From Flaccisagitta enflata (taxonomy: Eukaryota): 64,000 nt of DNA. Shown here piece after piece: positions 25,058-60,700 of this stretch; position 1 is the stretch's first letter, and each line of letters starts with the position of its first letter. Below the pieces are notes generated by a model. That model had not been told where the DNA came from. It saw only the letters and a list, made by a program, of their open reading frames with translations, and made no database searches. The position numbers were made by a program, and so were the translations under genes. The stretch is from NCBI GenBank assembly GCA_965153355.1, contig OZ231126.1, positions 620,001-684,000 on the forward strand, read 5' to 3'.

Positions 25058-25060
25058 GCA

Positions 25061-25295: not shown

Positions 25296-25672
25296 AAGGC
25301 CGTTTTCTTCCCCCTAAGATCCCCAAGCCGAAAGAATGAAGATATCTCTCTTATACATATTCAATATTCTGGATGCCTCCATATTCAAAATTTGTTTATT
25401 CTCTCATCCATATTCAAAAAATGATAAAGTAACTCAAGAGAATACTATACAAACGGGTATGACTAAGACCTACATTTTATCATTTTGGGCAACGGGCTTG
25501 GATGCGCTGATAATCGTTAATTCCAAGTTGATTTTGATTTCTCGTTAATTGATAATTGTCTCTTTTGCCCTGGTCGGCTATCAATGAGGGTACGGATGGA
25601 TAAGCAGAAGAAGAAGAAGAAGAAGAAGAAGAAGAAGAAGAAGAAGAAGAAGAAGAAGAAGAAGAAAAAGAA

Positions 25673-31218: not shown

Positions 31219-32867
31219 GTTAGTTTGGAATGAAAAGAATGAGAACTATCCATTTATGAATCGTTCTGTCCATTCGGTTGACGTTATCTACACCGCTTTT
31301 AGATCCAACTGTCGCGAAAAGAAGATATATTACACCAAAAATATTCAAAGTAATTAGTTTTTTCTTTTTTGCCCCGGATAGATTATTTGATTAAGTTTTG
31401 CTACAAGCAAAGAATGTCCCACCAACTAAAGAATTTAAGCCTCCTACTTACAATAAATGAATATTGCATGTTTCACATTGAAGGATCTTTTTCCCCAACA
31501 ATTTTTTCCTTACTTTCTTTCATAATTGTCATTTCTACACAAATTGAGCTGAATTGCTGGGATTGGTCTAGAATTTGAGAGAATTTAATGTAAGGAAAAA
31601 ATGTTCACTGATTTTTATTTTGAACAATTTTCAGACAATTTTTCAAAACTTTCCCTAATCTTGTGGTTTTTGCGGTGTTTTGGGGTCAAAATCAATTATT
31701 ACTGCATTAAATAAGTCAAATCTTTTAGTATTTTTAACAAAACTTCATTAATTCCTCATAACCAACACTGTAGGACCACTCTTGTTGCAAAAAAGAGGCA
31801 CTGCTGCTATCTAACCTCATTTTTTCCATGAGAAAAGGCTATTTTTAGCTGAAATCGACTAATTTTTGTCATGAAATTTAGAGCAAATGTATCAGCACTG
31901 GGGCTTTAATTCTTTTTTGTAACAAAACTTAATCAAATTATCTACCACAGAAAAAAAAGAATCACGTGGTTGTCTTAAGTATTTTATGAGTAATACATCT
32001 TCTTTTCGCGACAGTCCGATCTAAAAGCGGTGTATCTTTCCATTTCGTAATTCAGTGCCCATTCGTCTTTGGTAAATATTCAACATTTGTAAATTATTAT
32101 CACTCTTAAACATCCATAAGCCATGTTTCGTGACCAACCAAAACACAGAGCGACGGACAGACGGACAGATGGACAAATAGACAGACGGATGAGAGGTAAC
32201 CATTTGAATCACATGAAGAAGATCAAGGGCAAAAATGTTATTAGCGTTTGGTCAACACAGGAACAGATGGTCCTCGCGCACAAAACTCGCAAATTGAGGC
32301 TTCAATTTCCTTTTTTAACGACATTTACTTTCTATGCCGTCGCCGTTTAAGAAATGGTCATTACATGACCAACGCTGCCTTCTCTACCACCACCACTTTC
32401 TTTTTTTAACGACAATTACTTTCTACGCCTCGCCAATCAGAAATGATTTACCGTAAGAATGGACGTCACATAACCATTGCTACCCCACTTCCCTTTCCAC
32501 CACCGCCAATTTCCTTCTATAACGACATTTACTTTCTACGCCGTCGCCATTTAAGAAGTAGTTTACCGCAGAAATGGGCACCACAATACCACTGCTAGCA
32601 CACTGTCTTTTCTACCACCACCACTTTTTGCCATCGCATTCAAGGCTACCACTTCCTTCGCTCTACCAGACATTTGTTATTTTCCATCATCGGTGCCACT
32701 TACACTTCTTTCATTTTTCATATCGTCCTTGTATTGCATTGCTAATACCCAAACGCCACAGATACCGCTGTCATGACCATGCTTAAAACCACAGCGCAGA
32801 AAAGTGGATGCAAAAGCCTACGTAGCCACCCTCTAAAAAAGCTCTATTTGGAAGTGTCCAATACTTA

Positions 32868-33176
32868 GGGGGCGTTTCTAGTCAGAGATAATCGCGTTTT
32901 AACGGGCCACTCGGTCGCCCGCCACATTTGTTCGCTCGCATCGCTCACTCCGCTCACTCCGCTCACTCCGCTCACTCCGCTCACTCCGCTCACCCTGCTC
33001 ACTCTGCTCACTCGCTACGCAGCGCTCCGCTTTGCTAAGCTTGCTACGCTCACTCGCTCAATTCACGGGCTTGCTCACTACCTCGTGGGACAGTTGAAAT
33101 TCTTGAATATGTGTTCACGCTGTAAACGCGTTCAATGGGAACAAACGCGTTTTTGGTCGCCAGTAGAAACACGCCC
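32868..33176. mobile_element. MITE of the same family as 44295-45144
   Basis: Ends gggggcgtttctag and tagaaacacgccc, with internal (gctcactcc)n repeats. A fragment also lies at about 41660-41737. Confidence 0.7.
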
Positions 33177-35079
33177 TCATGCACCATTTGAATCCTGCAC
33201 TTGATTTTAATGGCGCGCAACGTCCATTCTTTGTGGTCTTTGTAATTACGAGGTTTCCAATGCCCGCCAGCGAATTTCCCCTTTACGATGAGCTTGGAAG
33301 ATGAAATCAGGTCTTGAATTACGGATTGAATTACAGATTGCCTCATAGCCTCATTTCCTGTCAACCTGGCTCTTGTTCCAATCAGAAATTGATATCGTCG
33401 ATCCAGGTGTAAGAGCGTTAGGACTCGCAATAGTCAACTTTTACTAGCTAGTTAACTGGTTAAGATTCTGAAAACCCCTATAGTTAACCATGCGAAATTA
33501 ACTAATTAAAACAGTAAATGATTTTTATGGAAAAATGGGGAAAAATGACCTTTTTTTTCCTTTAAATCACATCATTTTTTTATAAATTTCTATTAAATTC
33601 TTAGTAGATTTTTAATAAATTTTTAGTAATTTTTCTGTAAATTTTTAGTAAATTTTTTTGACATTAAGAAAGAATACTTGGATGATAACACAGAAACATG
33701 GAAACTTGAGGATTTTTAGCCTCAAACAGTAAAATCAATGCTAAAACTAAAACTAAATAATAACAATTTTCTGTAAATTCTGCCTCTTTTAAGGTAAGAC
33801 AGTGGTCTTCCGAAGGCAACATTTGTGTTTCATCGGGGGCCAAAATAAGGAAATGAAAATCTGTAAAACTGAATGATTATAATAAAATAATCATTGAAAT
33901 AAGTCACAATAATATTTTTTTGCATGCTTTGCACTTATCAACAAAAAAGAACCTAATTAAGATAAAATTGATGAAGAAAATTTACTGCAAATTACTAAGA
34001 ATTTCATTTTTGGTCAGTGACCAAGGGGCGGTTGAAACTATAAATTTGCATAGAAAATGAAAAAATGAATAAATGAAAAACATAGTTCTCCTTAAAAATC
34101 ATTTACCGAGAGACCTATGTTTTTGGAAATGCAAAATTTCCTTTCATTAGAGAGTAATATAAATTCAACCGCAGGCAAGAACAGAAAAATGTAATCAAGA
34201 TTTTATAAAAATCCTTGATTCTCTTGACTATTTTCAGGTGAATTGCATAGTTAAGATTACTTTTGAGGTCTAAATATGATAAAAATGTATACATAAAGTG
34301 TCTATAGAGATAATTTGTCTTCTTAAAACATTTGAGGATCATCATTATCCTGATACTGATGTATGGTGAAACGCTTGATTTTCCTTCAAAAAATTGCCGT
34401 CGTAAATTCTTTAAGACAGCGTGCCCACGAAGCCAACATTTAGGGTATCAAAATGGGTCAAAATAGAAAACATACATGAGTGTAAACAGAAAATCAAGTG
34501 AATAAAAATGATTGAGATAAGACATGCATGATATTTGAAAGTAAAATTTGCATCCATTCAGCAAAAGACTAAGATCTAGCCTATGTTATTGAGGAAGATT
34601 TACGTAAAATTTCTACAAATTTCCTTTTTGTCACTGACAAGGGGTTGGTCGAAATTATAAGTTTGCATAGAAAATGAAAAAATGAAAAAAACAAAGAACA
34701 TAGTTCTCTTTCCAAATCGTTTTTTGAGAGAACTATGTTTTTGAAAATGCAAAATTTTTTTGGTTGTGGCTTTCTTATAATTTCGACCTCAGAAAATAGA
34801 AAAAAATGTCAACAAAATTTTACTAAAAATCTTCATTTTCTTGTCATTTGCCGTGAGCATTGCTAATCAAAAAGCATCTTAAAGCGTAAAATATGAAACA
34901 GACATACATAATAAGTGTATCCAGTGACAACTTGAGCAATGAAAACATTTGTGGATAAATAATTAGTCCATTATTGATGCAAAAGTGGGGTGAAGCACTT
35001 CATTTTTCCCTGGCAGATTTGACGTCTTAAGTTTTTTAGCCAGTTAACTAGCATAATTTGTAGTAAATTAACTATTAAC

Positions 35080-41180: not shown

Positions 41181-42989
41181 GGAGGAGGGAGAGGCGGAGG
41201 GAGAGGGGGGCGGGAGGGTTGGCAGGAGAGTTGAAAGGATAGTAGGAGGGAGTGGTGGAGTGAGAAGGGGAGGGAGTGGGGGAAGGAGAGGTGGAGGAAG
41301 AAGGAGAGGAGGGGGGAAAGGGGGAGGAAGAAATGGAGGGAGTAAGAAGGGGGACTAGAGGTAGGGAAAGAGTGAGAGGAAGGATTAGAGGTTGATGAAT
41401 GCCAATACCCAGCAGAAACAGAGGAAGAAGAAGAGGAAGAGGTGGAGGGAAAGGGGGAAGAATAAGAGGAAGGGTTAGAGGTTGATAAATGCAAATACCC
41501 AGTTGGGAGGAAGAAGTGGATGGAGAGGGTGAGGAAGTGTCAGATTGGGAAGAGATGGAGGGTTAGGTGGGACAGAGGGTGGGGGAAGGATGAGAGCGAG
41601 GATTAGAGGTTAAAGAGGGAGGACACATGCAACGCAATGGGAACTAAGTGGAGGGAGAGCGGTGTTAGCAAACGAACATTGCGAGCGACCGAGTGGCCCG
41701 TTAAAAACATGATTGTCACTGACAAGAAACGCCCCCTCAGAAGTACATTGTGGTTGTTTCCCCCTTGTTTTAATTTGACTGTTCTGATTGCTGTTATTCA
41801 ATGTTTAAAAAAAAAAAAAAAAAAAAAAAAACATCTGGGCACTAACATATTGTCCCAGTAGCGGATTTCTTGTTCATCAAAAATATTTTTTGCTCATCAG
41901 CTGTATTAAGAACTAGCTAGGTATCTGAATCAACAGTCTGTTTCACCAGTGCAACAAAAAAAAAATCCGTCCTCATTGTTCAAACATTCATTATTGAAAG
42001 TTACAGGTTACAATACAGGATTTTAATAAGAAAAAATACGAGATTGATGGACAAACCAATGGAAAAGGCATAACAAAGCGAAAATGAATTCATATGCATA
42101 CAACTTTCATTGTGCTATTTTACAAAGTCACAAATATTGGGTTTCGGGCCAGCTTATGCGTAGATAAAGTTTAAAAAAAACGAGGCCGGATACTTGGCTA
42201 CCCCAGGCGCATGCGGGTGGGTAGGAGCAGTGCTGGAGAAGGTCACTAGGATATCTGGGCAGAAGCTGTTTGCTCAAATAGCTCAAAAACGCCAAGAAAG
42301 TAAAAAGGGGACCGACCAACCGACCAACCGACCAACCGACCAACCGACCAACCGACCAACGGACCGACATAGCAGGGTTTAGAGTCGCATAGCACGCAAC
42401 TAAAATGCTACTGACCTCAACTTGGGCTCGCGTAGCACGCGATTAAAAAAGAAAAATATGATTACTGAAGAAAGGAAACAGAAAAAAGCGAGTGTATAAA
42501 AGCGTTTGTTGATTAGTGTTTGTTGATTAGGTATGTAACTAATTGTCTATTTAAAACAATATCTAGAAAGCCTGATGAAATCTAGGACCATGGTAAGTCA
42601 TTCTCTAAATCATGGAACCAATAACATGAGGTTTCTCTGCCTTAAGTTGTCAAGATTTAAAATTATGCGAGACCTTACTACTTGAATGCCAAATTAGCAG
42701 GTGGACATGTCCAACAGAGATATAATCCCTTTAGGACTTGAACACTTAAGACACAGAGCTTAGTTCTATTTTCACTCAAGCGCATGCCACGGGATTGGAT
42801 AAGATGGTTCCTTATGATAAAGCAGCTTCATTGCTCATATAGAAATAAACTAAATATTTACTTATGGGACTGAAAGTTCTGTGCTCTATAGGCGGGCATG
42901 CCTTAATAGCGGGTGCGCCCAAGCGGGGCTCCACTGTACTCAGATAAATGAGATAATGAGTCCCTCATAATTTCAAGTCTAAAATATCT

Positions 42990-43318
42990 TTAAAGCAAAG
43001 TCTTTTTGCGCATCTCCATGGCATTCATGTATCTTCTGTGAAGTCTATCCTGAACATCTCTTCTTTCATTTCTGCCATTCTTTTGAGGATCAATGGCTTC
43101 TCCCAGACAACCACCTTCTTCAGTTTTGTCTTCAAAAACGGCGTCCTTGCATTTTCTCTCGGCTTTGTATCTTCCAAATCTATGCCAAGACCATTTGATG
43201 AGACGAAGTGGATAAGCGATCAAATTCATGGGCGGTTGGACTGTGAAACCCATACGGATTAGTCGCAATCGAAGACGAACTTTAGATGCTTTCCAGTGTA
43301 TGTTGGCCGATTGATTAA
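42990..43318 (-). CDS. TRPC-like channel, exon 5 (TRP domain and C-terminus)
   Basis: ctttttag|(V)NQSANIHWKASK...TVQPPMNLI (cf. EWKFAR and LPPPFNII)...DRLHRRYM, stop TAA. With exon 2 ending at 58633 the total is 3633 nt, about 1210 aa. Confidence 0.88.
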
Positions 43319-43818
43319 CTAAAAAGAACAAAATTCGCAATGGTCAGTGGTACAGTTGAGCCCTGTAATAGCGTCAACGTCAAGGGACTAGCAAATAATA
43401 TCTGTTATAGCTAAATTTCTATTATTCTATTATTGGCAACAATTAAAATAATAAGTGAGTCTTAACTCGTAGTGAATCATGATAAATCGTGGGAAACAAT
43501 AAGGCCTGTTAGGTTTGGGATTAAGGCTTTTGGCCATGATGATTCTTACATCAAAGCCAAATACTGTTGAACCCCGCTCTAACAGGGGACCCACAATTTT
43601 CCTCTGTTATAAGCGGACTTCTGTTATTGCCAACAACGGCAATAAAAGAAGATAATTTGAAGGGACAATGAATTTGCATGTGTTATAGGCGGAATTCCGT
43701 TGATGGCGGGTCCGTTAATGCGGTGTTCAACTGTAGATGATTCCCCAAATGTCATTAGCCCCTACAAGGTCACTGCCCCAAAATCGTACCGTGCAATCCC
43801 ATGAATATCATCACTTAC

Positions 43819-44268
43819 CTCTTTCAAATCCATTTGACATGAGCGCGATCAGCAAATTGAGCATAACCACGACGGCGAAAACGTGATACAAGCCAAGAAA
43901 CAATTCCCCGATCCAACTCGGCGACAGAGGCTCATTCGGGGCGAAATTGAAATCTTTTCCAATATCTTCTTTGGTGTAATTGTACTCTTTCATAATCTCG
44001 AAGAATGTGTCGTTGTCGAGTCCCGGTTGGCATAATCTCTCTCTCAATTTCAACATGTCATCTGGGTCTAAATACTCATCGTGATCATCGGCGTTCTCCT
44101 TCGGCTTTCTCAGATTGGGCAAGAATATCTTCAAATTTTTCATGTTGCTGTAACCAAACAGAGTCCAAAACAGACTCTTTAACGTTTCGATGAAATCGGG
44201 GAATTTTGATTCGATGAGTTGGCAGATTGGGAGGTTAGTGAGTGGACTCAGCGTGATTTGCCACATGC
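43819..44268 (-). CDS. TRPC-like channel, exon 4 (pore and S6)
   Basis: FIETLKSLFWTLFG is the TRPC LFW pore helix; WIGELFLGLYHVFAVVVMLNLLIALMSNGFER is S6. Donor G|gtaagt, phase 1. Confidence 0.92.
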
Positions 44269-44294
44269 CTTGACAATTGAAGTGAGTAGAATGA

Positions 44295-45144
44295 GGGCGT
44301 GTTTCCAGTGACAACTAAAAACGCGTTTCTTCCCGTTAAACGCCTTTACAGCGTGAACAGATATTTATGAATTTCTATGGTCCCACGAGGGAGTGAGCAA
44401 AGTGAGTGAGGAAACCTGTGAGTGAGCGAGCCTGTGAATGGAGCCAGCGAGCAAAGCGAGTATAACAGGGTGTGCAAAAAAATCTCATACTAGCCATCAA
44501 ATCCATACAAAAGACACCTTGATTTGGAGAAATTCCTTAGGATTAATGTTCAAAATTGAAAAATAGGTCATTTTTCAAACTTTAGGAAAGGAAAAATGAT
44601 GAATGGTAGACAGCAGAATAGGTTTTTAGACCAACAGGGGTGTAAGTAAAAAGTCACAAAAGATTTTTTTTAATGAAAAAACATTTATCTCTGGTCTAAG
44701 TTTGATTGATATATTACTTTTTAAGACTGAAAACCCTCCTAGATGACCTACCTAACTCCCCTTGATAACGATCCATCTAGGAGCCAATAAAGTTGAAAAA
44801 ACCTTCATTTTTAAACAAACACAGCTCTGCAAATAAAATAATGTCAAAATCTGATTTCCCGTTTGTTCTCAAGTATATTTCATGGCCATGTTTAAAAATT
44901 ATATCAGATGTTCATAGATACTACTTTTAGTATGACTAACTGAGATACTCTGGTTCAAATTTTAACTCATAACTCCCATAACAAGTATGGTTTTCATGCT
45001 ATAGAGCAAGCATGACATTTTTCGCTCACCCTGTTAGCAAGGTGAAGCACTGCGAAGCGAGTGAGCTGAGTGAACGGAGTGAGCGAACAAACAGGGCGAG
45101 TGACCAAGTGGCCCAAGTGGTTGTCTGTAACTAGAAACACGCCC
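44295..45144. mobile_element. PIF/Harbinger-like MITE with a nested Tc1/mariner-like element (about 44466-45033)
   Basis: TIRs gggcgtgtttccag / ctagaaacacgccc with an exact 3-bp TSD TGA (44292-44294 and 45145-45147). The inner element has cagggtgtgc / gctcaccctg ends. Superfamily labels are inferred from TSD and termini only. Confidence 0.75.
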
Positions 45145-45166
45145 TGAGTCTTGATTTGCCACATGC

Positions 45167-45400
45167 CTTGATAATTGATGTACGTCATTTGTATACAAAT
45201 CGCGAAGCAGAAAGTGTACAAGGAAAAAGCCAAAGCAAAATAAGTGATGTGCCGAATGGTTTTGACCATCATCAAGTTCATCGTGCCCATGGCTTTGTGG
45301 AATTGGAAGATGCGAGCAAATTGGCAGAAGAGCATAAGACAGGCGATCTTGAAGATCATCTCGTGGCCAACCACAAATTGGGCGAAGGTGTCGATGTAGC
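45167..45400 (-). CDS. TRPC-like channel, exon 3 (S4, S4-S5 linker, S5)
   Basis: aaatag|(G)YIDTFAQFVVGHEMIFKIACLMLFCQFARIFQFHKAMGTMNLMMVKTIRHITYF...TYINYQ G|gcatgt. Aligns to TRPC S4-S5. The donor is an inferred GC site. Confidence 0.8.
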
Positions 45401-45526
45401 CTATTTTTTTGGGTTACACATGATTTACAATTTGGGGTTTATACAATAAGTGAGGTGAAACCAAGTAAGACATGCTGAAATTTGTCATGGAATATTTCTT
45501 TATCTTCAACTATATTTTTCTTTTTC

Positions 45527-45606
<80 letters not shown>

Positions 45607-47163
45607 TTTTTCTTTCTTTCCTTCTTTATTTCTTTCTTTACTTCTTTCTTTCTTTCTTTATTTCTTTCTTTCGTTCTTTCTTTCTTTCTTTCTTTCTTTT
45701 TTTTTCTTTCTTTCTTTCTGTCATGCTAGTCTTTCCAGCTTGTTCTTCTTTCATTTATAAAAACAAGGCCGGATACACGGCCAATCCGTAGTCGCTGCTG
45801 GTGGGCAGGGGCAGTAATGCGGGTGGGCAGGGGCAGTATGGGAGTGGGCGGGGGGTATTGATGCCAGGCAGGAGCTGTGATGGTCAGAAATCCGTTTTTC
45901 AGTCGATTTTTCGTCATCAAAATTTTCCTATTTCATACATTCAGACAGACAGACAGACAGACAGACAGACCAAGGGACATACCCTCTTATAGAGTCGCTA
46001 GGCAGCGACTAAAAAGATGAGTACTTCCACAGAAGATATGTTACATTCTATGTAGGAGATAGATATACGGACAAAAGGTAGTCTCTTCACTCAATTGAAT
46101 CAATCTTTTATCATTAAGTGATATTTTGATCTATCATGTACTTCTGTTTTGAGCTTTTATGGGATTGGTCTGTGATTTTTAGTCGCGTGCACTCTATGAC
46201 CCGCTCTGTCCGTCGGTCGGTCGGTCGGTCGGTCGGTTGGTCGGTTGGTCGGAGACGCTTAGCTTTTTGTGTCGTTTTTGGTCATTTTGGGTTGTCTGAA
46301 GTTATTATGAGTCATTTTTTTGTTGTTTTTGGTCATTTTTGGTTGCTTTTAGTCATTTTTGGTGGCTTTTAATCATTTTTGGTCATTTTTGATCTATTAT
46401 GTCACTTTGTTTATTTAAGTCATTTGTGTCGTTTTTGGGCATTTAAAGTAGTTCTAAGTCATTTTAGATCATTTTCGGACATTTTAGGTCATTTTTGGAC
46501 ATTTAACATGTTTTTTAGTCGCGTGCTACGCGACTCTACACCCCGCTTTGTCGGTCCGTTGGTCAGTCCGTCCGTCCGTCGGTCACGTTTTACTTTTTTG
46601 GGGTTTTTGGGGTTATTGGCCTCACCGCTTCTGCCCAAATCATCTAGTAACCTCAACTACAGCCCCTGCCCACCCGCACGCGACTGGGGTAGCTGTGTAT
46701 CCGGCCTTGTTTTTGTAAGTTTTGGTCATTTATGTTTTTTTGTTTTTTTGGTGTTTGGTTTTTGGTTTTTGGTTTTTGGTTTTTGGGTTTTTGGGTTTTT
46801 GGGTTTTTGGTTTTTGGTTTTTGGTTTTTGGTTTTTGGTTTTTGGTTTTTTGTTTTTCGTTTTTGGTTTTTTGGTCATTTATCATGGTTTTTTGGTATGT
46901 ATTGGTCATTTATGTTTTCAGTTTTTTGGTTTTTTGGTTTTTGGTTTTTGGTTTTTGGTTTTTGGTTTTTGGTTTTTGGTTTTTGGTTTTTGGTTTTTGG
47001 TTTTTTTCTTTTTTGTTTTTTGTTTTTTGTTTTTTTGTTTTTTGTTTTATTCTTTTTTGTTTTTTTTTGTTTTTTGTTTTTTTGGTTTTTGGTTTTTGGG
47101 TTTGTTTTTTTTTGGTATTTTGGTCATGTTTTTTGGTATATTTTGGTCATTTCTGTCATTTCA

Positions 47164-47600
47164 AGTCTGCTGGTTTAAGTCTGCTGGTTTAAGTCTGCTG
47201 GTTTTTGAGTCTGCTGGTTTTTGAGTCTGCTGGTTTTTAAGTTGGCTGGTTTTAAGTCGGCTGGTTTTTAAGTCGGCTGGTTTTTAAGTCGGCTGGTTTT
47301 TAAGTTGGCTGGTTTTTAAGTCGGCTGGTTTTTAAGTCGGCTGGTTTTTAAGTCGGCTGGTTTTTAAGTCAGCTGGTTTTTAAGTTGGCTGGTTTTTAAG
47401 TCGGCTGGTTTTTAAGTTGGCTGGTTTTTAAGTCGGCTGGTTTTTAAGTTGGCTGGTTTTTAAGTCGGCTGGTTTTTAAGTCGGCTGGTTTTTAAGTTGC
47501 TGGTTTAAGTTGGCTGGTTAAAGTTGGCTGGTTAAAGTCTACTGGTTTAAGTCTGCTGGTTTAAGTCTGCTGGTTTAAGTCTGTTGGTTTAAGCCTGGTT
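47164..47600. repeat. 14-16 bp minisatellite
   Basis: (aagtcggctggttttt)n with variants, adjoining a (tttggtt)n tract from about 46750. Confidence 0.9.
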
Positions 47601-49587
47601 TAGTCATTTTTCATTGATTGGGTTGATGGAGTTGATTAATTTGACTCAATTACAAAAGTCACCACTTTTTCCAGTGGTCCCGGCCTGTAACTGGGTGGGT
47701 TTCCACGGCCTCCAATACCTTATTAAGCTGATTTATTCAACAATTCATAAAAGTCAATCTAGTCAACTAAATCATTTTATTCATTTCTTATATTTCTCCC
47801 TATTCAGTCATGTTAATAAGGAGTCAGGTCAATTCAGTTTTTTATGTCTCGCACGCGACTTAAAGGTGTTGGCCTTGTTTAACTTGAATCGGCGTATCCT
47901 TAATTTCCCAATCAGCAACAAACAAGGTCATTAGACCTAAGTCGCGTGCTTCAGCACTTTCAAAAGATGTCATGCAGACAGACGGACAAAAAGTTTTTTT
48001 TGAAAAGCACTTTATAAAAGGCTTTTTACTCCTCCAAGTTTCTTCTCTGCCATCTAGAGCCATCAAAAACGCAATAAAAAGCCTTTAAAACGACTTTGTG
48101 ACGGACCAACCGACCGACGGACCGACCGACCGACCGACGGACCGACCGACCGACCGACCGACCGACCGACCGACAAAGTGGCTTATAGAGTCGCGTAGCA
48201 CGCGACTAAAAAATCATTGTCTCGTTTTCTTTTTTTTTTCTTTTTATAATAAATACTTTCAGAGAAATATTTATGAATGCAGGCGACAATTTTTTGTTTA
48301 ATCAAGAATTCATCAAAAATGTGATCTGATGGGGCCAGGCGGAAAATTTGTTGTCAACCTCTTTAGACATCAAAACTCTTTCCATTTTGGTTGTCCTAAG
48401 AAGATTTGATATGAAAACCACTTAATCAGATTTTAGTAATACAGCTGGCGGACCTTAAATCCGTTGGAATTAGCGGGACCCCTCTTGATTTAGTTGATTT
48501 CAACAGTTTCAACAGGATATTTACTATAGTTTATATAGCAAAAAATATAAATTACAATTTTACTCAAAATACGTCATCTTCGATTTTTTTCATTTTCTGG
48601 CCATTAAGGGCCCTAAGTGAGCCGACTTTGGTGAAACATTAATCTCAGATACTCCCCGCCCCTAAGGGGCCCAAAATTGGGGCAAAAAAAATTTGACGTT
48701 AAATCCGTTGGTTTTAGCGGGGGCAGGGTCACTTTTTTAAATCACCATGCTAAAACCGCTGATTTTAACGGGTTTAACGGCAAATTCCCCTATTTTGGTC
48801 CTCCACATACATATCCACTATCTTGAGACCCTATTTAATAACAAAAGAGAAAAAGTGAGCACACATGAGCACACATGAGCAAGCATGAGCAAGCATGAGC
48901 AAGCATGCTAAAACTGCTGATTTTAACGGGTTTAACGGCAAATTCCCCTATTTTGGTCCTCCATATGCATATGCAGTATCTTGAGCACCTATTTAATAAC
49001 AAAAAAGAATAAGTGAGCACACATGAGCACACATGAGCAAGCATGAGCAAGCATGAGCAAGCATGCTAAAACTGCTGATTTTAACGGGTTTAATGACAAA
49101 TTCCCCTATTTTGGTCCTCCACATCCATATCCAGTATCTTGAGACCCTATTTAATAACAAGAAAGAATAAGTGAGCACGCATCAGCACACATGAGCAAGC
49201 ATGAGCAAGCATGCTAAAACCGCTGATGTTAACGGGTTTAATGGCAAATTCCCCTATTTTGGTCCTCCACATGCATATCCAGTATCTTTAGACCCTATTT
49301 AATGACAAAAAAGAATAAGTGAGCACACATGAGCAAGCATGAGTAAGCATGAGCAAGCATGCTAAAACCGCTGATTTTAACTGGTCTAATGGCAAATTCC
49401 CCTATTTTGGTCCTCCTCATCCATATCCAGTATCTTGAGACCCTATTTAATGAAAAAAAAAAGAAAAAGTGAGCACACATGAGCACACATGAGCAAGCAT
49501 GAGTAAGCATGAGCAAGCATGCTAAAACCGCTGATTTTAACAGGTTTAATGACAAATTCCCCTATTTTTGTCCTCCACATCCATATC

Positions 49588-49718
49588 CAGCGGCGTATAT
49601 GAGGGGGCTTCCGCAGCTGCCGCGGCAGCTGTAAGATTTTGGACAAGAATAATTTCGGTCAATGGGAGTCAAGAAAACAGAGAGAGAGAGAAAAAAAAAA
49701 GAGGGGAAAGGAGGAGAA

Positions 49719-49806
<88 letters not shown>

Positions 49807-50191
49807 GACAGAGACAGACAGAGAGAGAGAGAGATATTCAGAACACGAAACCTGTTTTTCATGGTAGAAACAATGGGCCCCATAGGATATGTGACTATCC
49901 ATGCCATGCTTTGGACTGCTTTCTTCTTTTTGATCAAATCACTCTTTTGTAAACTTATAAACTGATATACTTATTAGTCATACACTGATTTAAAAGTTGT
50001 TGTTTTACATGGTTTTATTATCTAATAGTAATGTATAGTAATAGATAGTCAGGTATAGTCATATATAGTTATATGTAATAGTGTATAGTTAATGATAGTA
50101 TCATATAGTAATACATAGGTCGGACAGGGACTATGTCGGGACATAGATTGGAGGCGGAAGCTGCTTTAGTCTTGGCTTGGATATGCCACTG
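49588..50191. mobile_element. hAT-like non-autonomous element inserted in the satellite arm
   Basis: TIRs cagcggcgtatat / atatgccactg, flanked by 8-bp near-identical tccatatc / tctatatc. The satellite unit resumes after it. Confidence 0.65.
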
Positions 50192-52338
50192 TCTATATCC
50201 ATTATCTTGAGACCCTATTTAATGACAAAAAAGAAGCACACATGAGCACATGAGCACACATGAGCAAGCATGAGCAAGCATGCTAAAACCGCTGATGTTT
50301 ACGGGTTTAATGGCAAATTCCCCTATTTTGGTCCTCCACATGCATATCCAGTATCTTGAGACCCTATTTAATAACAATAAAGAATAAGTGAGCACACATG
50401 AGCACCCATGAGCAAGCATGAGCAAGCATGAGCAAGCATGCTAAAACTGCTGATTTTAATGGGTTTAACGGCAAAATCCCCTATTTTGGTTCTCCACATG
50501 CATATCCAGTATCTTAAGACCCTATTTAATGATAAAAAAGAATAAGTGAGCACACATGAGCACACATGAGTAAGCATGAGCAAGCATGCTAAAACCGCTG
50601 ATTTTAACGGGTTTAATGGCAAAATCTCTATTTTGGTCCCTCACATGCATACCTAGCATCTTGAGACCTTGTATGATAACAAAAAAGAGTAAGTGAGCAC
50701 ACATTAGCAAGCATGAGCAAGCATGAGCAAGCATGCTAAATCTGCTGATTTTAATGGGTTTAATGGCAAATTCCCCTATTTTGGTTCTCCACATGCATAT
50801 CCAGTATCTTGAGACCCAATTTAATGACAAAAAAGAATAAGTGAGCACACATGAGCACACATGAGCAAGCATGAGCAATACGCTGTCCTATATACACTCA
50901 AGTGCCTAATAATGCTCTGTTAAGATGAAAATCCTATCACACATCATGAGATAGACACATACTAATTGTCCGAGGATCTAGAACAAGCTACAACCTTAAC
51001 TAACACTCATTTTTTACTTTTTAGAAAAGGAAATGTAACAAGTAAGCACACATACGCAAGCATGAGCATGAATGCTACATCTGCTGATTTTATTGGGTTT
51101 AACATAGAAATCCCCTATTTTGGCCCTCTACATGCTTATTTAACATCATGTGACCCTCTTTGGTGACAAAAAAGAGTGAGTGAGCAGTGAGCACACATGA
51201 GCAAGCATGAGCAAGAATGCTAAATCCACCGATTCTTACAGGTTTAACATTAAAATCCCCAATTTTGGTCCTCCACATGCTGTTTTGACATCATGAGACC
51301 CTCCATGGTTACAATAAAGAAGGTAACTATGGCAAAGAAAAAAAGCGAACACTTTGTTTTGCTAGTTTCTGCTCAACTATGGGCCTGAACCATAGAAAAT
51401 CCATGACCGTTTTAAAGCTCTGCAAAAAATCTTCCAAATGCGACGTTGCTGGTCATTGTAGCTTTATTCGTTTAGAAATGGCAATGGTTTGAAGAAAAAA
51501 ATCGCCGATTGAAAAAAGTGCTTATTCCAACTTTTTTTCCAATGAGCGATTTTAGTCTTTCCGTTTTTGTCAGTAATGCAGCTCAGGATTGTCTTAGCTA
51601 CTCGTTATCCATGAGCAAATTAAAGAGCTTCAAATTTTCTTTAAAATGGCGCCAAGAATGATTTTTTAACTCAATGCGTTTAGTTTTTATGTTAGAATAA
51701 AGATAACCCATGAAAGTGGCGTAGTGAATTTCCAAATTCTTGACCACCTGTCTTCATTCTAATGCCATTTCTAAACGGATAGAGCTAGAACATTCAGCAA
51801 GGTCTCACTTGAAAGATCTTTCGCAGATCTTTAAAATGGTCATGGATTTTGCTATGTTTTTCTCATTGCTTGTATGTGAAACATTGACAAACAAGTTGTT
51901 CGCTTTTTTTTTTTGCCATAGTTACGTTTCACGGTCTCGCAGGCGGAGTATGAGGAAAATTAGTCATTTTTAAAATTAGACAAACCTAGGAAATCTATAT
52001 ATCATTATAAAGCTTATACATTATTGTAAATGAATTCACTTTTGGATTTTGTTAGCAGGGTCCAATTCTTATGTAAATTAGGTTATTATGAAAAAATATC
52101 AAATTGGCCTTTATTTCAAAATTAAACCATCTAGAGAAGTAAGATTGACCTGCATTTGTGCCAATAGGCTGGGGCAAACGTGTGTAGACTACATCAATCA
52201 TTTGGCAGTTGGTCAGTTGGTCCGTTGGTCTGTTGGTCCCTTAGTCCGTCAGTCCGTTGGTCTGTTGATTCATTGGTTGGTCTGTGAACAGACTCCCAAA
52301 TACTTCCCTGAAGTGTGGAAACGCACCTTTAAGATACT

Positions 52339-52417
<79 letters not shown>

Positions 52418-53394
52418 CGTGCTGGAGTGGGTTGGTCAACCCTACCCACTTTTCATCTTTGTTCTTTGTTCCCTTCTTTCTCTCCTGAAATAAAAGACAC
52501 TTTATCTGTTTTCATCTTTCTCTCATTCTTTCTTTCTTGTCTTCTTTCTTTTTCTTTTCTTTTTTAGTCGCGGACACCCAACTCTACACCTTGCCGTGTT
52601 GGTCAGTTGGTAGGACGGTTGGTAGGTCGGTCCGTCCGTCCATCACATTTTTTAAATTCCAAGCGGTTTTTGCATTACTGCTCTTGCCCAACCATCCGCG
52701 ACTGGATTGCCATGTATCCGGCCTTGTTTCATTGTTGTTTTTTTTTTCCTTTTTTGGGCAGCAGCTCGAAGGGGCCGATGACCTTTGCTCTCACACATAT
52801 GGGAGATTTCTCCTCCTCCTCCATCTCCTTCTCCTTCTCCATCCTCCCCCCCCCACTTGCCCTAGGCTCCATATCTAGCCTCGAGGTCCCATTCCTAGCC
52901 TCGACGCCCCGTTCCTAGTCTCAAGGCCCCATTCCTAGCCTCGAAACCCCATTTCTAGCCCCGAGGCCCTATTCCTTGCTTCAAGGTCCCATTATTAGCC
53001 TTGAGGCTCCAGTTCACACCTCGCAGCTCCTGTCCCAGCCTTGAGGCTCCAATCCCAGCTTCCAGGCTCTAACTCCGGCCTAGAGGCTGGGACCCCAGCC
53101 CTGCGGCTCCAACCCTAGCCAAAAAGCTTCATTCTGGCCTCGTAGCCCAAATCCCAGCCTCAATGCTCAAATCTTAGCCCAGCATAGGTCATCGGCTCCT
53201 TCGGGGCCGCTGCCCCTCTCACCTTCACATGTTACATACACTAACTTGGGGGCAACGGGTACCGCTGACCATCTGACGCTTTTGCGACTATTCATTGTAG
53301 GTTTTCATTCTAGGTTTCTAGTCTAGTCTGACGATCTTTATATGCAGCTTTGTCTTCATCATCATCATCATCTTCTTCTTTTTCTTTCTCTTTT

Positions 53395-53905
53395 TGGGCA
53401 GCGGCCCCAAAGGGCCGATGTCCTGTAGGAAACAGGGGCTAAAAATTACGTCCGTCCGTACGTACCCCCCCCCTCCGAAGCTTCTCAAGCCTCCCCGGAC
53501 TCAAATCCAGCCTCTCAGGCCTCAAATCTGGCCTCTCGGGCCTCAAATCTGGCCTCTCAGGCCTCAAATCCAGCCTCTCAGGCCTCAAATCCAGCCTCTC
53601 AGGCCTCAAATCCAGCCTCATGGGCCTCAAATTCAGCCTCTTGGGCTTTTAATCCAGCCTCTCAGGCCTCAAATTCCCATTGAATAAAATGGCAAATTGA
53701 CAAAAAATTGAGAAAAATTCCAAATTCCCAATGAATATTATGAAAAATTACCCCAAATATGCTCTCTCAGGACGTATGGAAATTCACCCGTGTCCTACAG
53801 GACATCGGCCCTTTGGGGCCGCTGCCCTGCTCCCACTCCACCTCTTTAGCTGATTACTCCAAGCAGGGCATCGGGTACCGCTGACCATGTGCGATCCTTG
53901 GATGA
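53395..53905. mobile_element. Helentron/HINE-like family B (representative copy)
   Basis: Inverted repeats gggcagcggcccc / ggggccgctgccc enclose a 21-bp (ctcaaatccagcctctcaggc)n array and are followed by gggtaccgctgacc. Related copies at about 4853-5310, 5440-6005, 20324-21640, 40205-40617, 52755-53290 and 63143-64000. Confidence 0.6.
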
Positions 53906-53982
53906 CTAGTTCTTTTTCTGCTTCTTCTTCTTCTTCTTCTTCTTCTTCTTCTTCTTCTTCTTCTTCTTCTTCTTCTTCTTCT

Positions 53983-54037
<55 letters not shown>

Positions 54038-54081
54038 TCTTCTTCTTTCTTCTTCATCTCCTTTTCATTTTGATTCCATAA

Positions 54082-54116
<35 letters not shown>

Positions 54117-54284
54117 AATGATGATGATGATGATGATGATGATGTTGATGTTTGATGATGATTGATGATGATGATGATGATGATGATAATGGTAATAATG
54201 ATGATGGTTATGAACTGGTGTTGGTTACAATTGTTAATGATTATGATGAATTTGATTCCATAACTGATGAAGATGATAAAGATA

Positions 54285-54341
<57 letters not shown>

Positions 54342-54739
54342 TTTGATGATTGATGATAATGATCATGCCTGGTAGCTTAGAAATTGCGTCCTTGGTGTTT
54401 TTAAAAGCTTCTCTTTGGGATCCTTGATGTTGTGTCGCTCCATCATAACTATATTTGGGAACGCACATGCAGGATGCTTTGGATTAACTGGGATCACTAT
54501 TCAATGAATTGTGTCAGTAAGTGTGATTGTGGGGGGGGGAGGCGAGGTCACTTGTTTTGCCCCGGTAAATGCAATTGCATCTAAGTTTCAAAAACACCTT
54601 CAAAGCATTTAAAATTACAAATTGATATTCAATTTCCTAGTCTTCATATCTTTGCAGCAGTATCTCAGAAAGAAACACCCAAAATTCTGTTATTTATGCT
54701 ACTCTTAAGGCATTTTTCAGCATAAAATGATACCTAATT

Positions 54740-55082
54740 AATTTCAACAATCAAGGTAGAAAATATTGTAGGCGAGTGTCTTTGAATCTTTTACTCCTTT
54801 TTTGATCCTTTACAAGTTAATGCTGCAGAGAAAAAAAGAGAAAAACCTTAAAGACAGTTCAAAAATGCTATTTTTACAGCATTTCCACAGCATTTTACAG
54901 CATAGAATGATAATAAATTTCAACAATCAAAGTAGGAAATCATGTAGGTGAGTGTCTTTGGCCCTTTTACTCTCTTTTTGATCCTTTATAAGTTAATGCT
55001 GCAGAGGAAAAAGGAGAAATACCTTAAAAACAGTTAAAAAATGCTATTTTTACAGCATTTCCACAGCATTTTACAGCATGAA
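54740..55082. repeat. Two-copy tandem duplication, about 175 bp
   Basis: aatttcaacaatcaa...gtgtctttg...gttaatgctgcagag...cagcattttacagcat occurs twice in succession. Confidence 0.8.
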
Positions 55083-58000: not shown

Positions 58001-58632
58001 AAATCAGCGGTTTTAGCATGCTTGCTCATGCTTGCTCATGTGTGCTCATGTGTGCTCACTTATTCTTTTTTCTCATTAAATAGGGTCTCAAGATAGTGGA
58101 TATGCATGTGGAGGACCACAATAGGGGAATTTGCTGTTAAACCCGTTAAAATCAGCGGTTTTAGCATGGTGATTTAAAAAAGTGACCCTGCCCCCGCTAA
58201 AACCAACGGATTTAACGTCAAATTTTTTTTGCCCCAATTTTGGGCCCCTTAGGGGCGGGGAGTATCTGAGATTAATGTTTCACCAAAGTCGGCTCACTTA
58301 GGGCCCTTAATGGCCAGAAAATGAAAAAAATCGAAGATGACGTATTTTGAGTAAAATTATAATTTATATTTTTTGCTATATAAACTATAGTAAATATCCT
58401 GTTGGAACTGTTGAAATCAACTAAATCAATTTTTCTTAAAATCTTTTTTTCATTTCTAAACGGAATTAGCCAGCGAGCTATGTTCGGTCTTGAATGGAAA
58501 TTTCTTTGTCATAGTTTATGATCTGTTTTTATTTCTTTAACGGATATTGAAGTCTAGCTGCTGGCTGCTGTAATCATGGTTAGGTTTTCTTATATTTTTT
58601 CTCCTAGATAGTAATGCCCTCTCGATGTAAAC

Positions 58633-60700
58633 CATGTGTATAGGCGTCTAGCAGTCGTTTTTCAGCCTCCATCTTTTCCGAGGCAACATCACGAAGATGA
58701 GAGGCTCTGGCGTGAATGTCTCTAGCTCTGGCTTTGACAATTTCTTTCCTTTCCTCCAAGGTAACATTGCCTTCTCGCGATCTGTTGTAGGAAACAGCGC
58801 CCAAGTGAATTTCCTTCAACGCCTCTTGATATTCCATGAAGTAGTCAAACAGAGCGGAGACATCTGCGCGGTGGTCGCCAGTGTGTTGGTTCCAATAGAC
58901 TCGACTTCCCGCCTTGCAGAAATTGACTGGGAAATGATTGGAAGGGTTGTCAGGATGGTAACATTCGCTTTTAGCGAAGTTTGAAGATGGCCAAAGTCTG
59001 TTTCTTCCGTCTAAACCATTCATCTTGCTCATGGTTGAACCGCAGTCCACCCACTGGGCCGGCAGCCATTCACCACGAAGCATCGGAGCGATGAATGGAT
59101 AAAACCAAACTCCATACGATACGATGAAAAGAGTGACATTGATGGTCGTATACACGTTCCAAAAGTCTCTCCAAAACGCTCGTTTTTGTTTCATCATCAT
59201 TTCTATCAGGTGGAAAATCGTAGCGATGGCGCAAAAGATAATCAATTTTTCCAGGTTATCCAGTGGACACATCACTTGAGTCATGTTACGAGAGGAGTAT
59301 TTGGAAATTTCTTTCAAGACGAGGGCGCAGAATACCAAATATACTATGACGTAATGTACGTAACTGTGATAGGGAGTGGCTCTCCCGCGCGACCAGTTGT
59401 CGATGGCATGTTTCCACTGACGCCATTTTGACAATTTGGGGCAAACTCCACTGGTCTTTCTATTCAGCCTACGCGTTTGCGCGAATTCATTTGCGGAACA
59501 GTCTTGATAGAAATAGAGAATTGGGGAAATCATCAATGTAAAAACCGGTTCTACCGCTGTGAATACCAAGTGCATCCAATAAACCAGCATCATCAAAAGT
59601 CTAGCGCAACAGCTGCTGGGTCCCTGAGCCGTAGGCCTCTTTGGTTCTTTGTGTTGAGAGGGATGCCACATCCTCTCTATAAACTTGTAACATTTCTCAT
59701 GGGTAAAGAATTCAGTTACATTGTAAGCGATAGAAGTCTCAATCAATGGACTAAGCCTCGGCTTTTTGCCTCCAATCCCTATCAAGACATCCATTTCCTG
59801 AAGAGCATACCCAGGCGTGTCTGCAGCGCCGTTATTGTAACCACCACCATCATCATCATCATCGTCATCCTCACGAGCAACGTTCAATAACTCGGTGGCA
59901 TAACTGACGCACTTTTCCTCTAACGTTTCATAGATCTCGACCTTAACATGCTCGTTTCTCGCTCTCTGTTTGAATCTGCCTGCCAATTCCAAACATCTCA
60001 TCATCGTGTGCGATTCTGTCAGGTTAATGTAAGATGGAGTACAAATGGCTTTTTGAGAAGCGTGGCTTGAAAACCATCGCATATGGTTGTCGGGGTGGTA
60101 TGGACGACAAGCTCTTGGGTGCAAAAGTAATCCGTCATTGTCACCTGAGACCAAAGTGCACAGCACTCTCTTTTGATCCCAAATCACAAAGCCATACTCC
60201 AACAGCATCGAAATCATGTCGTAATCATCCAAAAGACAGGCTCTCAATAATGGATTGGCCACCTCCTCATCCGTGAAAAATGTACTTTCATATGGATGCT
60301 TACTATCTTCCTCGAAGACGTGAAAATGTCGATAAAACACTCGGTTTTCATCCACCGAAGTCGAATTAAGGAACGTTGCGAAATTTTTGAATATCATTTT
60401 TGAAGAACCCATGGGTTTGAAATCTTTCTGTGGGGCTGGGTAGCTCTTCCTTGTGTCACAACCTGGACCACAGTGGTATCTTTGACGTACTCTGCAATCA
60501 AACTCGCTGACTAATGTATTCAAATCTTTGCCATTGTTTGGAACCTTTTTCTCACACTTGCTTGTCCTAACAACAATAGGGATCGATCTACCTCGCAAAA
60601 AGCCATTTATGGCGGCATAATCCAACAAACTTTTGGCTAACAGATGGTTTTGGCAATCAACAGCGTGAGTCAATGCATCTCCAAGACGGATCTTGTCATC
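58633..60700 (-). CDS. TRPC-like channel, exon 2 (ankyrins, linker, S1-S3, long loop)
   Basis: ttccag|DDKIRLGDALTHAV...NPLLRACLLDDYDMISMLLEYG...YETLEEKCVSYATELL...EFFTHEKC...DFWNVY, all aligning to TRPC motifs. The 3' end is uncertain: phase-1 donor candidates are at 58633, 58618 (GC) and about 59073. Confidence 0.85.

What the first reader, a model, noticed from the sequence alone, without database searches (positions are those of the whole stretch)
44254..45178. Possible intron caught in the act of birth: coding duplication plus MITE insertion, spliced GC-AG
Seen: the two TRP coding blocks overlap by a 27-bp direct repeat (44254-44280 and 45152-45178, one mismatch), so both read N-x-QGMWQI. 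The repeat contains CAAG|GCATGT on the minus strand. The first copy offers a GC donor and the second an AG acceptor behind a pyrimidine-rich ctcattctactcacttc tract. Splicing 45166-44269 (898 nt) leaves exactly one copy in frame. Removing the 850-bp MITE and one TGA TSD leaves a 45-nt, stop-free, in-frame segment (GMWQIKTHSTHFNCQ). Known: intron gain by duplication of a proto-splice site, and by transposon insertion, are both proposed mechanisms. Inference: an in-frame duplication supplied latent splice sites and MITE insertion turned it into an obligatory intron.
Basis: partly seen in the sequence, partly recalled or inferred. Interest (0 to 1): 0.8.

Follow-up and report, generated by a model that had tools for sequence, protein, structure and literature searches.

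The report
Young intron from exon duplication plus MITE
An ion-channel gene of a marine animal carries an 898-base interruption that its relatives lack, made of a small duplicated piece of the exon with a jumping-gene copy inside, and it is probably removed as a recently born intron, though no RNA evidence could be obtained.

Summary
On the minus strand, a TRPC-like channel exon is interrupted by 898 nt (45166-44269). This consists of a 44/45-nt tandem duplication of exon sequence (38/45 identical; core 28/30) with an 850-bp high-copy TIR element (TGA target duplication) inside the upstream unit. All nine relatives whose ORFs cover the site read ...NYQGMWQ(I/V)... once and without a break, so the interruption is derived, not an old intron. 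Of 14 frame-preserving, stop-free GT/GC...AG pairs nearby, only AAG|GC (45166) ... AG| (44269) restores the family sequence. Contigs from two haplotypes of one DNA run and from a second individual carry the element at the exon-3 junction. Exonic differences shown are 15 of 16 synonymous, and 0 of 11 listed indels hit exons. So the interrupted gene appears to be under purifying selection and must lose the insert from its mRNA. Splicing itself was not shown: the one RNA run gave 0 reads. "Caught in the act" is overstated, because the units differ at 7/45 positions and the allele is shared by diverged haplotypes. The "in-frame 45 nt" may be secondary, since the ancestral unit is 44 nt. This is a well-preserved case of intron gain by tandem duplication, with a GC donor and a later MITE.

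The parts
45167..45400 (-). Exon 2 of a TRPC-like channel gene (S5 region). It ends ...M-T-Y-I-N-Y-Q + G.
   Evidence: tblastn with P0002 and P0027; acceptor AG at 45402-45401.
44269..45166 (-). Proposed young phase-1 GC-AG intron, 898 nt.
   Evidence: It is the only one of 14 frame-preserving stop-free GT/GC...AG pairs that restores the relatives' sequence; dinucleotides checked. RNA not seen.
45165..45166 (-). GC donor in AAG|GCATGT. It matches 7 of 9 positions of the (A/C)AG|GT(A/G)AGT consensus.
   Evidence: consensus from PMC2490688 (passages).
45145..45179 (-). Upstream duplication unit, first 35 nt. It includes the 28-nt near-perfect core and one copy of the target duplication.
45145..45147 (.). 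Target-site duplication copy (TGA on +, TCA on the gene strand).
44295..45144 (.). 850-bp non-coding TIR element (MITE) of a high-copy family.
   Evidence: TIR pair. A second, shorter copy in the window has the same termini. Summed contig depth is 7e3-5e5 against about 140-180 in the flanks.
44292..44294 (.). Target-site duplication copy (TGA on +).
44282..44291 (-). Upstream duplication unit, last 10 nt. It is homologous to 44238-44247 of the downstream unit and supplies part of the pyrimidine tract and a CTCAC branch-like motif.
44238..44281 (-). Downstream duplication unit (44 nt). Its first 13 nt are intronic (acceptor region); the rest is the ancestral coding sequence G-M-W-Q-I-T-L-S-P-L-T.
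   Evidence: relatives.
44269..44270 (-). AG acceptor.
43819..44268 (-). Exon 3 (pore helix, long pore-S6 loop, S6). It ends in AG|GTAAGT.
42990..43318 (-). Exon 4 (TRP-box-like I-H-W-K-A-S-K; stop TAA at 42992-42990). It shows that exon 3's donor is real.
   Evidence: Exons 2+3+4 joined give one open frame of 337 codons including the final stop.
58763..60673 (-). Exon 1 (N-terminal cytoplasmic part and S1-S4), inside a 727-codon open frame at 58607-60787. Its 3' boundary was not determined.
32863..33180 (.). Second, shorter copy of the same element family. It has TGA/TAA at its ends and no long flanking direct repeat.

Best explanation
A single ancestral exon of a TRPC-like cation-channel gene was split by a lineage-specific intron.

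Step 1 (shown from sequence): a 44-45-nt piece of the exon was duplicated in tandem. This put the motif AAG|GC(ATGT) at two homologous places about 45 nt apart.

Step 2 (shown): an 850-bp MITE with a 3-bp target duplication transposed into the tail of the upstream unit. That unit had already diverged at the target.

Step 3 (inferred, not observed): the spliceosome removes everything between the two copies of the motif as a phase-1 GC-AG intron, 45166-44269. The donor comes from the upstream unit. The acceptor, pyrimidine tract and branch-like motifs come from the end of the upstream unit and the start of the downstream unit. This leaves exactly the ancestral coding sequence.

The element contributes length, and possibly a terminal stem that brings the two sites together. 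It contributes no splice site.
For: Derived state:
- All 9 relatives that cover the site, of 21 fetched proteins, read ...M-T-Y-(I/V/F/S)-N-Y-...-W-...-L-x-(P/S)-L-...-L-P once, in one ORF.
- Four of them (P0002, P0027, P0032, P0033) run from exon-1-equivalent sequence through exon 3. They end 2-17 residues after N-G-F-E-x-G with unrelated tails. In the window this point is the AG|GTAAGT donor before exon 4. They are therefore unspliced genomic ORFs.

Tandem duplication:
- The units are 38 of 45 identical, and the tail homology is reached by 11 of 20,000 shuffles.

Mobile element:
- TIRs and TGA/TGA.
- A second copy with the same ends has no long flanking repeat, so the long repeat is not a by-product of transposition.
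- Depth is 50- to 3000-fold that of the flanks.

Splice choice:
- 1 of 14 canonical frame-preserving pairs restores the family sequence.
- The donor matches 7 of 9 consensus positions.
- The last 30 intron nt are 67% pyrimidine, against 43% for the rival acceptor and 40% for this gene's exon-2 acceptor.
- Two YTNAY motifs lie upstream of the AG.

Constraint:
- X1 records 5 and 6 (two haplotypes, 10 differences in 183 nt) and X3 record 23 all join exon 3 to the element.
- One search shows 40 of 89 differences; 16 of the 40 fall in exons 2/3, and 15 of those 16 are synonymous. The chance fraction is 401/2088 = 19%; binomial p = 2e-10, or 2e-6 if 35% is assumed.
- The 2 differences in 44269-44294 would both be replacements.
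- 0 of 11 listed indels lie in the exons, which make up 684 of 2171 nt.
- Exons 1-4 are open.
Against: - No RNA was seen. The only RNA run offered gave 0 laid reads from 12.2 million records (about 6% of the run), which is no test. No transcript-derived protein of this species was found.
- GC donors are under 1% of donors (PMC2490688, passages).
- The polymorphism table is incomplete. 49 of 89 differences were not shown, among them at least 8 in 43970-44093 (X1 record 4), and their coding effect is unknown.
- Only 3 of the synonymous differences (44207, 44237, 44240) lie on contigs physically joined to the element. The phase of the others is unknown.
- One X3 contig (record 24) leaves the window sequence exactly at 45152 for 54 nt of unknown content. 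A structurally different allele may therefore exist.
- The order of events and the original unit length (44 or 45 nt) rest on a short gapped alignment.
Confidence: 0.6

Rival explanations
1. The gene copy is simply disrupted. The duplication and MITE insertion made a null or decaying allele, and no productive mRNA is made.
For: No RNA evidence of any kind was obtained. A MITE in an exon usually inactivates a gene (review PMC11282704, section 5). The original duplication may have been 44 nt, which shifts the frame. The family has several close paralogue-like relatives that could compensate.
Against: All four exons are open. 15 of 16 shown exonic differences are synonymous and 0 of 11 listed indels are exonic. 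Three of the synonymous differences sit on contigs that carry the element junction. The insertion is present in all three haplotype contigs seen at the exon-3 junction, in two individuals. A ready-made canonical splice pair restores the exact ancestral protein.
Confidence: 0.15
2. The insert is spliced out, but through other sites. One option is a GT inside the element's TIR (GGGC|GTGTTT, intron start 45138) joined to ...GCTGAG| (exon start 44246). Another is AT|GTGGCA (intron start 45162) joined to the same acceptor. Either gives a channel with a small indel in the S5-pore loop.
For: Both are GT-AG and keep the frame open (rows 3 and 10). GT donors are far commoner than GC.
Against: Both donors depart from the consensus at +4/+5 and at -1/-2. 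The shared acceptor has only 43% pyrimidines in its last 30 nt. Both products delete or replace the W-Q-I-T-L-S stretch, which the close relatives share and whose W recurs in all nine relatives that cover the site. The first option makes 45151-45139 coding, yet an X3 contig is unlike the window from 45151 on.
Confidence: 0.1
3. The intron is as in the best explanation, but it arose in one step. A staggered double-strand break in the exon was repaired with fill-in, giving the flanking direct repeat, and captured a DNA fragment that already held the MITE with its own flanks. There was no tandem duplication followed by transposition.
For: Daphnia neointrons show a direct repeat of the exon end at the opposite intron end, attributed to staggered breaks (PMC4202315, passages). 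The 7-8 nt next to the element on the upstream side align poorly with the downstream unit (4 of 8).
Against: The Daphnia repeats are 4-12 bp; here the repeat is 30 nt or more. The 10 nt on the other side of the element (44291-44282) are homologous to the sequence that follows the downstream unit's core, as expected for a tandem duplication and not for foreign filler (11 of 20,000 shuffles). The element has a clean 3-bp duplication, like the family's other copy.
Confidence: 0.1

Closest known systems
[quoted passage not shown] The vertebrate ATP2A1 intron was re-enacted by Hellsten et al. 2011 (PMC3265369; abstract and Results read).
   Same: The intron is absent from relatives. Donor and acceptor are the same duplicated proto-splice motif at homologous points of two tandem units. 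The intron is phase 1 inside a Gly codon, and splicing restores the unaltered coding sequence.
   Different: The motif is AG|GC, not AG|GT. The unit is only 44-45 nt, below the roughly 60-nt minimal spacing those authors state for their system. 850 of the 898 nt are a later MITE. Both units are still recognisable. Splicing was not demonstrated here.
Potato RdRp intron from a recent tandem duplication (Ma, Lan & Niu 2016, PMC4974935; abstract read).
   Same: A recent, lineage-specific tandem duplication whose upstream copy supplies the donor from formerly exonic sequence.
   Different: In potato the duplication spanned an existing intron-exon boundary, so acceptor, branch site and pyrimidine tract were inherited from an old intron. 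Here all signals derive from exon sequence.
Introners, i.e. MITE-like elements that create introns (Micromonas IE1 and others), as summarised in PMC11282704 (section 5 read). Gozashti et al. 2022 was seen only in the search listing.
   Same: A short non-autonomous TIR element with a 3-nt target duplication makes up most of an intron in a coding exon of an aquatic organism. The review's example also integrates at TCA.
   Different: Introners bring one splice site and co-opt the other from the target duplication. Here the element ends lie 21 nt inside the donor and 25 nt inside the acceptor, and neither the element's ends nor TCA provide GT/GC or AG at the junctions. Whether this family forms many introns could not be tested, because no genome is held.
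Daphnia pulex neointrons from double-strand-break repair (Li et al. 2014, PMC4202315; passages read).
   Same: A young intron with a direct repeat of the adjacent exon end at the opposite intron end, seen in population data.
   Different: Repeat length is 4-12 bp there, against a 30-nt core within a 45-nt unit here. The content there is filler of unknown origin; here it is duplicated exon plus an identifiable transposon.

Membership tests
Intron gained by tandem genomic duplication | The intron is absent at this position in relatives (derived state). | tested here: met
   9 of 9 relatives that cover the site are uninterrupted. 4 are long genomic ORFs that run into the next, conserved intron.
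Intron gained by tandem genomic duplication | Two tandem homologous units of exon sequence, with the junctions at homologous positions of the units. | tested here: met
   Units of 45 and 44 nt are 38/45 identical once the element and one TSD are removed. The tail homology is reached by 11/20,000 shuffles. Both junctions lie after AAG.
Intron gained by tandem genomic duplication | The duplicated proto-splice motif supplies canonical donor and acceptor dinucleotides. | tested here: met
   AAG|GC...AG|GC gives a GC-AG intron, a recognised minor canonical class and not the AGGT of the textbook model.
Intron gained by tandem genomic duplication | The segment is actually spliced from the mRNA. | tested here: inconclusive
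   RNA run X8 gave 0 reads laid from about 6% of the run. The only support is indirect, from purifying selection.
Introner / transposon-derived intron | A transposon with TIRs and a TSD makes up the intron. | tested here: met
   An 850-bp TIR element with TGA/TGA occupies 850 of the 898 nt.
Introner / transposon-derived intron | Splice sites are supplied by the element or by its target-site duplication. | tested here: not met
   The donor lies 21 nt upstream of the element and the acceptor 25 nt downstream. The only GT near an element end gives a non-ancestral product.
Introner / transposon-derived intron | Many introns of the genome are copies of the same element. | not testable with these tools
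   No genome is held. High depth shows many copies but not where they lie. The other copy in the window has no evident gene context.
PIF/Harbinger-type (Tourist-like) MITE (features recalled from memory, no library on hand) | Short non-coding element, G-rich ...GTTT... TIRs, 3-bp TSD (usually TWA), high copy number. | tested here: inconclusive
   The TIR GGGCGTGTTTC, a 3-bp TSD and high copy number are seen. The TSD is TGA/TGA and TGA/TAA rather than TWA. No transposase or reference library was compared.
TRPC-type TRP channel (host gene) | Six-TM ion-transport domain, TRP_2 linker domain, and a TRP box after S6. | tested here: inconclusive
   Pfam Ion_trans is above threshold in P0002 and P0027 (32-34 bits against 25). 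TRP_2 is below threshold (18 against 27). The best solved matches are TRPC3/6, E about 1e-7. A W-K motif follows S6 in exon 4.

The most novel reading that the evidence does not exclude
A two-step 'spacer activation' birth of an intron. The 44-45-nt duplication created a matched AG|GC donor/acceptor pair that was too close together to be spliced. The allele may have been frame-shifted and null, or may have carried 15 extra residues. Only the later MITE insertion made the pair usable, by adding about 850 nt of length and a TIR stem that brings the two sites together. It thereby rescued or fixed the allele as an intron. In this reading the transposon creates an intron without contributing or co-opting any splice site.
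Probability: 0.25. Interest if true: 0.7.

Novelty: new variant of a known kind. Interest (0 to 1): 0.5.

Why it matters
Proven recent intron gains whose mechanism can still be read from the sequence are few, and the tandem-duplication model has mostly been inferred after the traces have faded. Here both duplicated units, the ancestral uninterrupted state in relatives, and a datable transposon insertion are all visible at one animal locus, with natural polymorphism around it.

If the GC-AG junction is confirmed, three things follow:
- A duplicated AG|GC motif, and not only AG|GT, can found an intron.
- The signals of a new acceptor (pyrimidine tract, branch-like motifs) can come from former coding sequence.
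- It becomes possible to test directly whether a transposon can turn a too-short duplication into a spliceable intron.

If the junction is not confirmed, the locus is a disrupted paralogue and of little interest.

Tried and rejected
- **RNA.** No RNA holder was listed for the stretch. The one RNA run offered (X8, same study as X1) gave 0 laid reads from 12.2 million records, about 6% of the run, so it is no test of expression or splicing.
- **Own genome.** Not held, so there was no genome-wide census of the element and no scan for other repeat-flanked introns.
- **Metagenome contig scan.** An alignment of P0027, P0002 and exon 3 found only 2 loci at 24-29% identity. Their alignments start at the pore helix, so they say nothing about this site.
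- **Same-species proteins crossing the junction.** The 'near' search with exon 3 and the 'longer' search with exon 2 found none. The only same-species hit was a 110-aa ORF, P0031.
- **Scan notebook.** Nothing by place or by sequence.
- **Long TSD.** I considered that the long repeat is a long target duplication of a larger element whose TIR extends to AGAMTSA. I rejected this because the family's second copy has the same 3-bp ends and no long repeat, and because the 'spacer' is homologous to the downstream unit.
- **Old shared intron.** Rejected on the relatives' uninterrupted ORFs.
- **Exon 1/2 intron.** I tested whether the 13-kb intron between exons 1 and 2, also absent from relatives, has repeat-flanked junctions. 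The longest shared word was 9 nt of A/T, so it does not.
- **RNA fold of the intron.** The terminal TIR stem appears in both the MFE and the centroid structure, but the overall energy is ordinary (z = -0.65), so this is not evidence.
- **P0020.** This is a repetitive, unrelated protein and a spurious hit.
- **Not inspected.** 12 of the 26 hits were not fetched. No supplementary files of the papers were opened.

Full report
**What is in the sequence.**
The window is eukaryotic and no whole genome is held for it. On the minus strand, two coding blocks overlap by a direct repeat at 45152-45181 and 44254-44283, 28 of 30 identical, 898 nt apart. Both copies read N-x-Q-G-M-W-Q-I in frame. Directly inside the repeat lies an 850-bp element, 44295-45144. 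Its terminal inverted repeats begin GGGCGTGTTTC, and TGA sits on both sides.

**The inserted element is a real, abundant transposon.**
A second, shorter copy lies at about 32863-33180. It is 85% identical over 110 nt at one end and 73-83% at the other, with the same termini and TGA/TAA next to them. That copy has no long direct repeat around it. The 30-nt repeat at the channel gene is therefore not something the element makes when it inserts.

In contigs of three DNA runs, the summed depth over the element is 7e3 to 5e5 against about 140-180 in the flanking exons. This is not a copy number, but it shows a high-copy family. By TIR shape and 3-bp duplication the element resembles PIF/Harbinger-type MITEs. 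That comparison is recalled from memory, not tested, and the TSD is not the usual TWA.

**The host gene.**
tblastn with an 840-aa relative maps exon 1 (about 60673-58763, inside a 727-codon open frame), exon 2 (45400-45167) and exon 3 (44268-43819). Exon 3 ends in AG|GTAAGT. Exon 4 (43318-42990) follows a clean acceptor, carries a W-K motif after S6 and ends in TAA. Exons 2+3+4 joined give one open frame.

Relatives reach Pfam Ion_trans above threshold and TRP_2 below it. Their best solved matches are TRPC3/6 at E about 1e-7. 'TRPC-like channel' is a fair label, but membership is not proven.

**The interruption is derived.**
I fetched 21 proteins from the searches. These were 14 of the 26 hits, three further cluster members, two hits and two. 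Nine of them cover the site: P0001, P0002, P0004, P0008, P0011, P0027, P0030, P0032 and P0033. All nine read the region once, without a break. In the closest ones it reads ...M-T-Y-I/V-N-Y-Q-G-M-W-Q-I-T-L-S/D-P-L-T-N-L-P....

They come from unnamed metagenome contigs of 585-3629 nt. P0002, P0032 and P0033 (840-871 aa) and P0027 (267 aa) run from exon-1-equivalent sequence through exon 3. They stop 2-17 residues after N-G-F-E-x-G with unrelated tails. That is exactly what an ORF caller gives when it runs into the conserved G|GT donor that the window has there. So these are unspliced genomic ORFs, and they have no intron at the exon 2/3 site.

One relative needs a caveat. P0006 aligns only from L-H-P-L-P-N-L-P onward and starts with an F-rich unrelated stretch. 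Its contig may be interrupted a few codons downstream of this site. I could not see its DNA.

**It is a tandem duplication, not just a 30-nt repeat.**
I took the element and one TGA out by coordinates. The upstream unit (45179-45145 plus 44291-44282, 45 nt) then aligns with the downstream unit (44281-44238, 44 nt) at 38 of 45 columns with one gap. The 17-nt tail alone matches at 12 positions. Only 11 of 20,000 shuffles and 13 of 20,000 random 16-mers of the window do as well.

Three consequences follow:
- The downstream unit is the ancestral coding sequence and is 44 nt long. The original duplication was therefore more parsimoniously 44 nt, which shifts the frame. The present 45-nt open frame may be secondary or coincidental.
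- Both copies of the element's target read TCA on the gene strand, where the homologous triplet of the other unit is TGA. At least one change in the upstream unit therefore predates the element. The order duplication, then divergence, then MITE is the best reading.
- The units differ at 7 of 45 positions, so the event is young but not 'in the act'.

**Which splice.**
I enumerated all GT/GC donors in 45215-45096 and all AG acceptors in 44345-44206 that keep the frame and give no stop. There are 14 pairs. Only GC 45166 ... AG 44269 reproduces the relatives' sequence without an indel.
- The donor AAG|GCATGT matches 7 of 9 positions of (A/C)AG|GT(A/G)AGT. GC donors are under 1% of donors and are reported to fit the rest of the consensus more closely (PMC2490688, passages).
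- The last 30 nt before the acceptor are 67% pyrimidine, against 43% for the rival acceptor at 44247 and 40% for this gene's own exon-2 acceptor. They hold CTCAT and CTCAC. All of this comes from the tail of the upstream unit and the head of the downstream one.
- The intron is phase 1 inside a Gly codon, as in the ATP2A1 case (PMC3265369, Results).

**Population evidence that the interrupted gene is functional.**
In run X1, two contigs join exon 3 to the element: record 5 with 0 differences, and record 6 with 10 differences in 183 nt. In X3, a second individual, record 23 does the same with 14 differences and 2 gaps in 238 nt. X1 record 8 joins the element to exon 2. The insertion is thus shared by haplotypes about 5% apart.

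One search shows 40 of 89 differences, and 16 of the 40 fall in exons 2/3. Fifteen of those 16 are synonymous; the exception is 45379 (Q to R). The chance fraction is 19%, giving p = 2e-10, or 2e-6 if 35% is assumed. The two differences between the element and the acceptor (44274, 44287) would both be replacements. One of them makes the other haplotype's copy identical to the upstream unit at that base. None of the 11 listed indels lies in the exons, which are 31.5% of the stretch.

Caveats:
- 49 differences were not shown, including at least 8 in 43970-44093.
- Only three synonymous differences sit on contigs physically joined to the element.
- X1 may be the assembly's own sample.

Even so, a gene that keeps four open exons and this pattern while carrying the insert is most simply one that splices the insert out.

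**What was not obtained.**
No RNA holder was listed. The one RNA run gave 0 reads from about 6% of its records, so splicing remains an inference.

One X3 contig (record 24) follows exon 2 and the first 15 intron bases, then departs from the window exactly at 45152 for 54 nt that I could not see. It may mark a structural variant at the 5' end of the intron. It fits an unconstrained intron and argues against the rival in which 45151-45139 is coding, but it is unexplained.

**Comparison and verdict.**
[quoted passage not shown] That mechanism has in-vivo proof and many inferred cases: 188 events in Table 1 of PMC3443670 (passages) and the re-enactment in PMC3265369. This locus differs in three ways. 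It uses AG|GC. Its unit is shorter than the roughly 60-nt spacing quoted for splicing in that work. It carries a later MITE that makes up 95% of the intron.

It is not an introner in the defined sense, because the element and its TSD supply no splice site. It is not the Daphnia type, which has 4-12-bp repeats. Searches for 'intron gain' + 'tandem duplication' + 'GC-AG' (4 papers, listing only) and for 'intron gain', 'direct repeats', 'double-strand break', 'MITE' (96 papers hold at least 3 terms; 12 were listed) showed no title describing this combination. That is weak evidence that the combination is not in print.

I rate it a new variant of a known kind. My confidence in the spliced GC-AG reading is about 0.6. 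I score interest at 0.5: it is a clean, testable natural example, not a new principle.

Noticed in passing
window 45401-58700 (minus strand): The roughly 13-kb intron between exons 1 and 2 is also absent from the relatives' uninterrupted ORFs (P0002, P0027, P0032, P0033). It is therefore a second lineage-specific intron in the same gene. Its junctions share no direct repeat (longest common word 9 nt), and its donor was not determined. Several phase-1 GT/GC candidates lie at 58801-58618.
   Followed up: partly
window 45152 (run X3, record 24): A 446-nt contig of a second individual matches exon 2 and the first 15 intron bases, then is unlike the window for 54 nt, starting exactly at the end of the repeat core. 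This may be a structural allele at the intron's 5' end. Its sequence was not visible.
   Followed up: no
protein P0006: This 95-aa relative aligns only from L-H-P-L-P-N-L-P onward and begins with an unrelated F-rich stretch. It also leaves the family sequence after ...M-L-R-F-R. Its contig may hold interruptions a few codons downstream of the window's junction and in the pore-S6 loop, while its closest relative P0004 is uninterrupted at the first place.
   Followed up: no
window 43592-43737 (intron 3): Another very high-copy repeat: summed contig depth is 3.6e5-5.2e5 against about 140-250 beside it in X1 and X3.
   Followed up: no
window 32863-33180: A shorter (about 318 bp) copy of the same TIR element, with an internal (GAGTGAGCG)n-like array and TGA/TAA at its ends. 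It has no evident gene context.
   Followed up: partly
window 45500-45720: A long (GAAA)n microsatellite about 100 nt upstream of exon 2's acceptor.
   Followed up: no
window 48900-50900 and 57400-58500 (intron 1): Tandem arrays whose minus-strand frames repeat a unit like ...R-Y-W-I-C-M-W-R-T-K-I-G-E-F-A-I-K-P-V-K-I-S-G-F-S-M-L-A-H-A-C-S-C... This is a satellite-like repeat inside the large intron.
   Followed up: no
window 42128-42442, 46488-46718, 48026-48205, 25000-25350, 62316-62606: A dispersed repeat family whose frames read ...A-C-Y-A-T-L-H-P-A-L-S-V-R-W-S-V-G-R-S-V... with (GRSV/TDRP)n-like runs. It occurs on both strands and in several places of the window.
   Followed up: no
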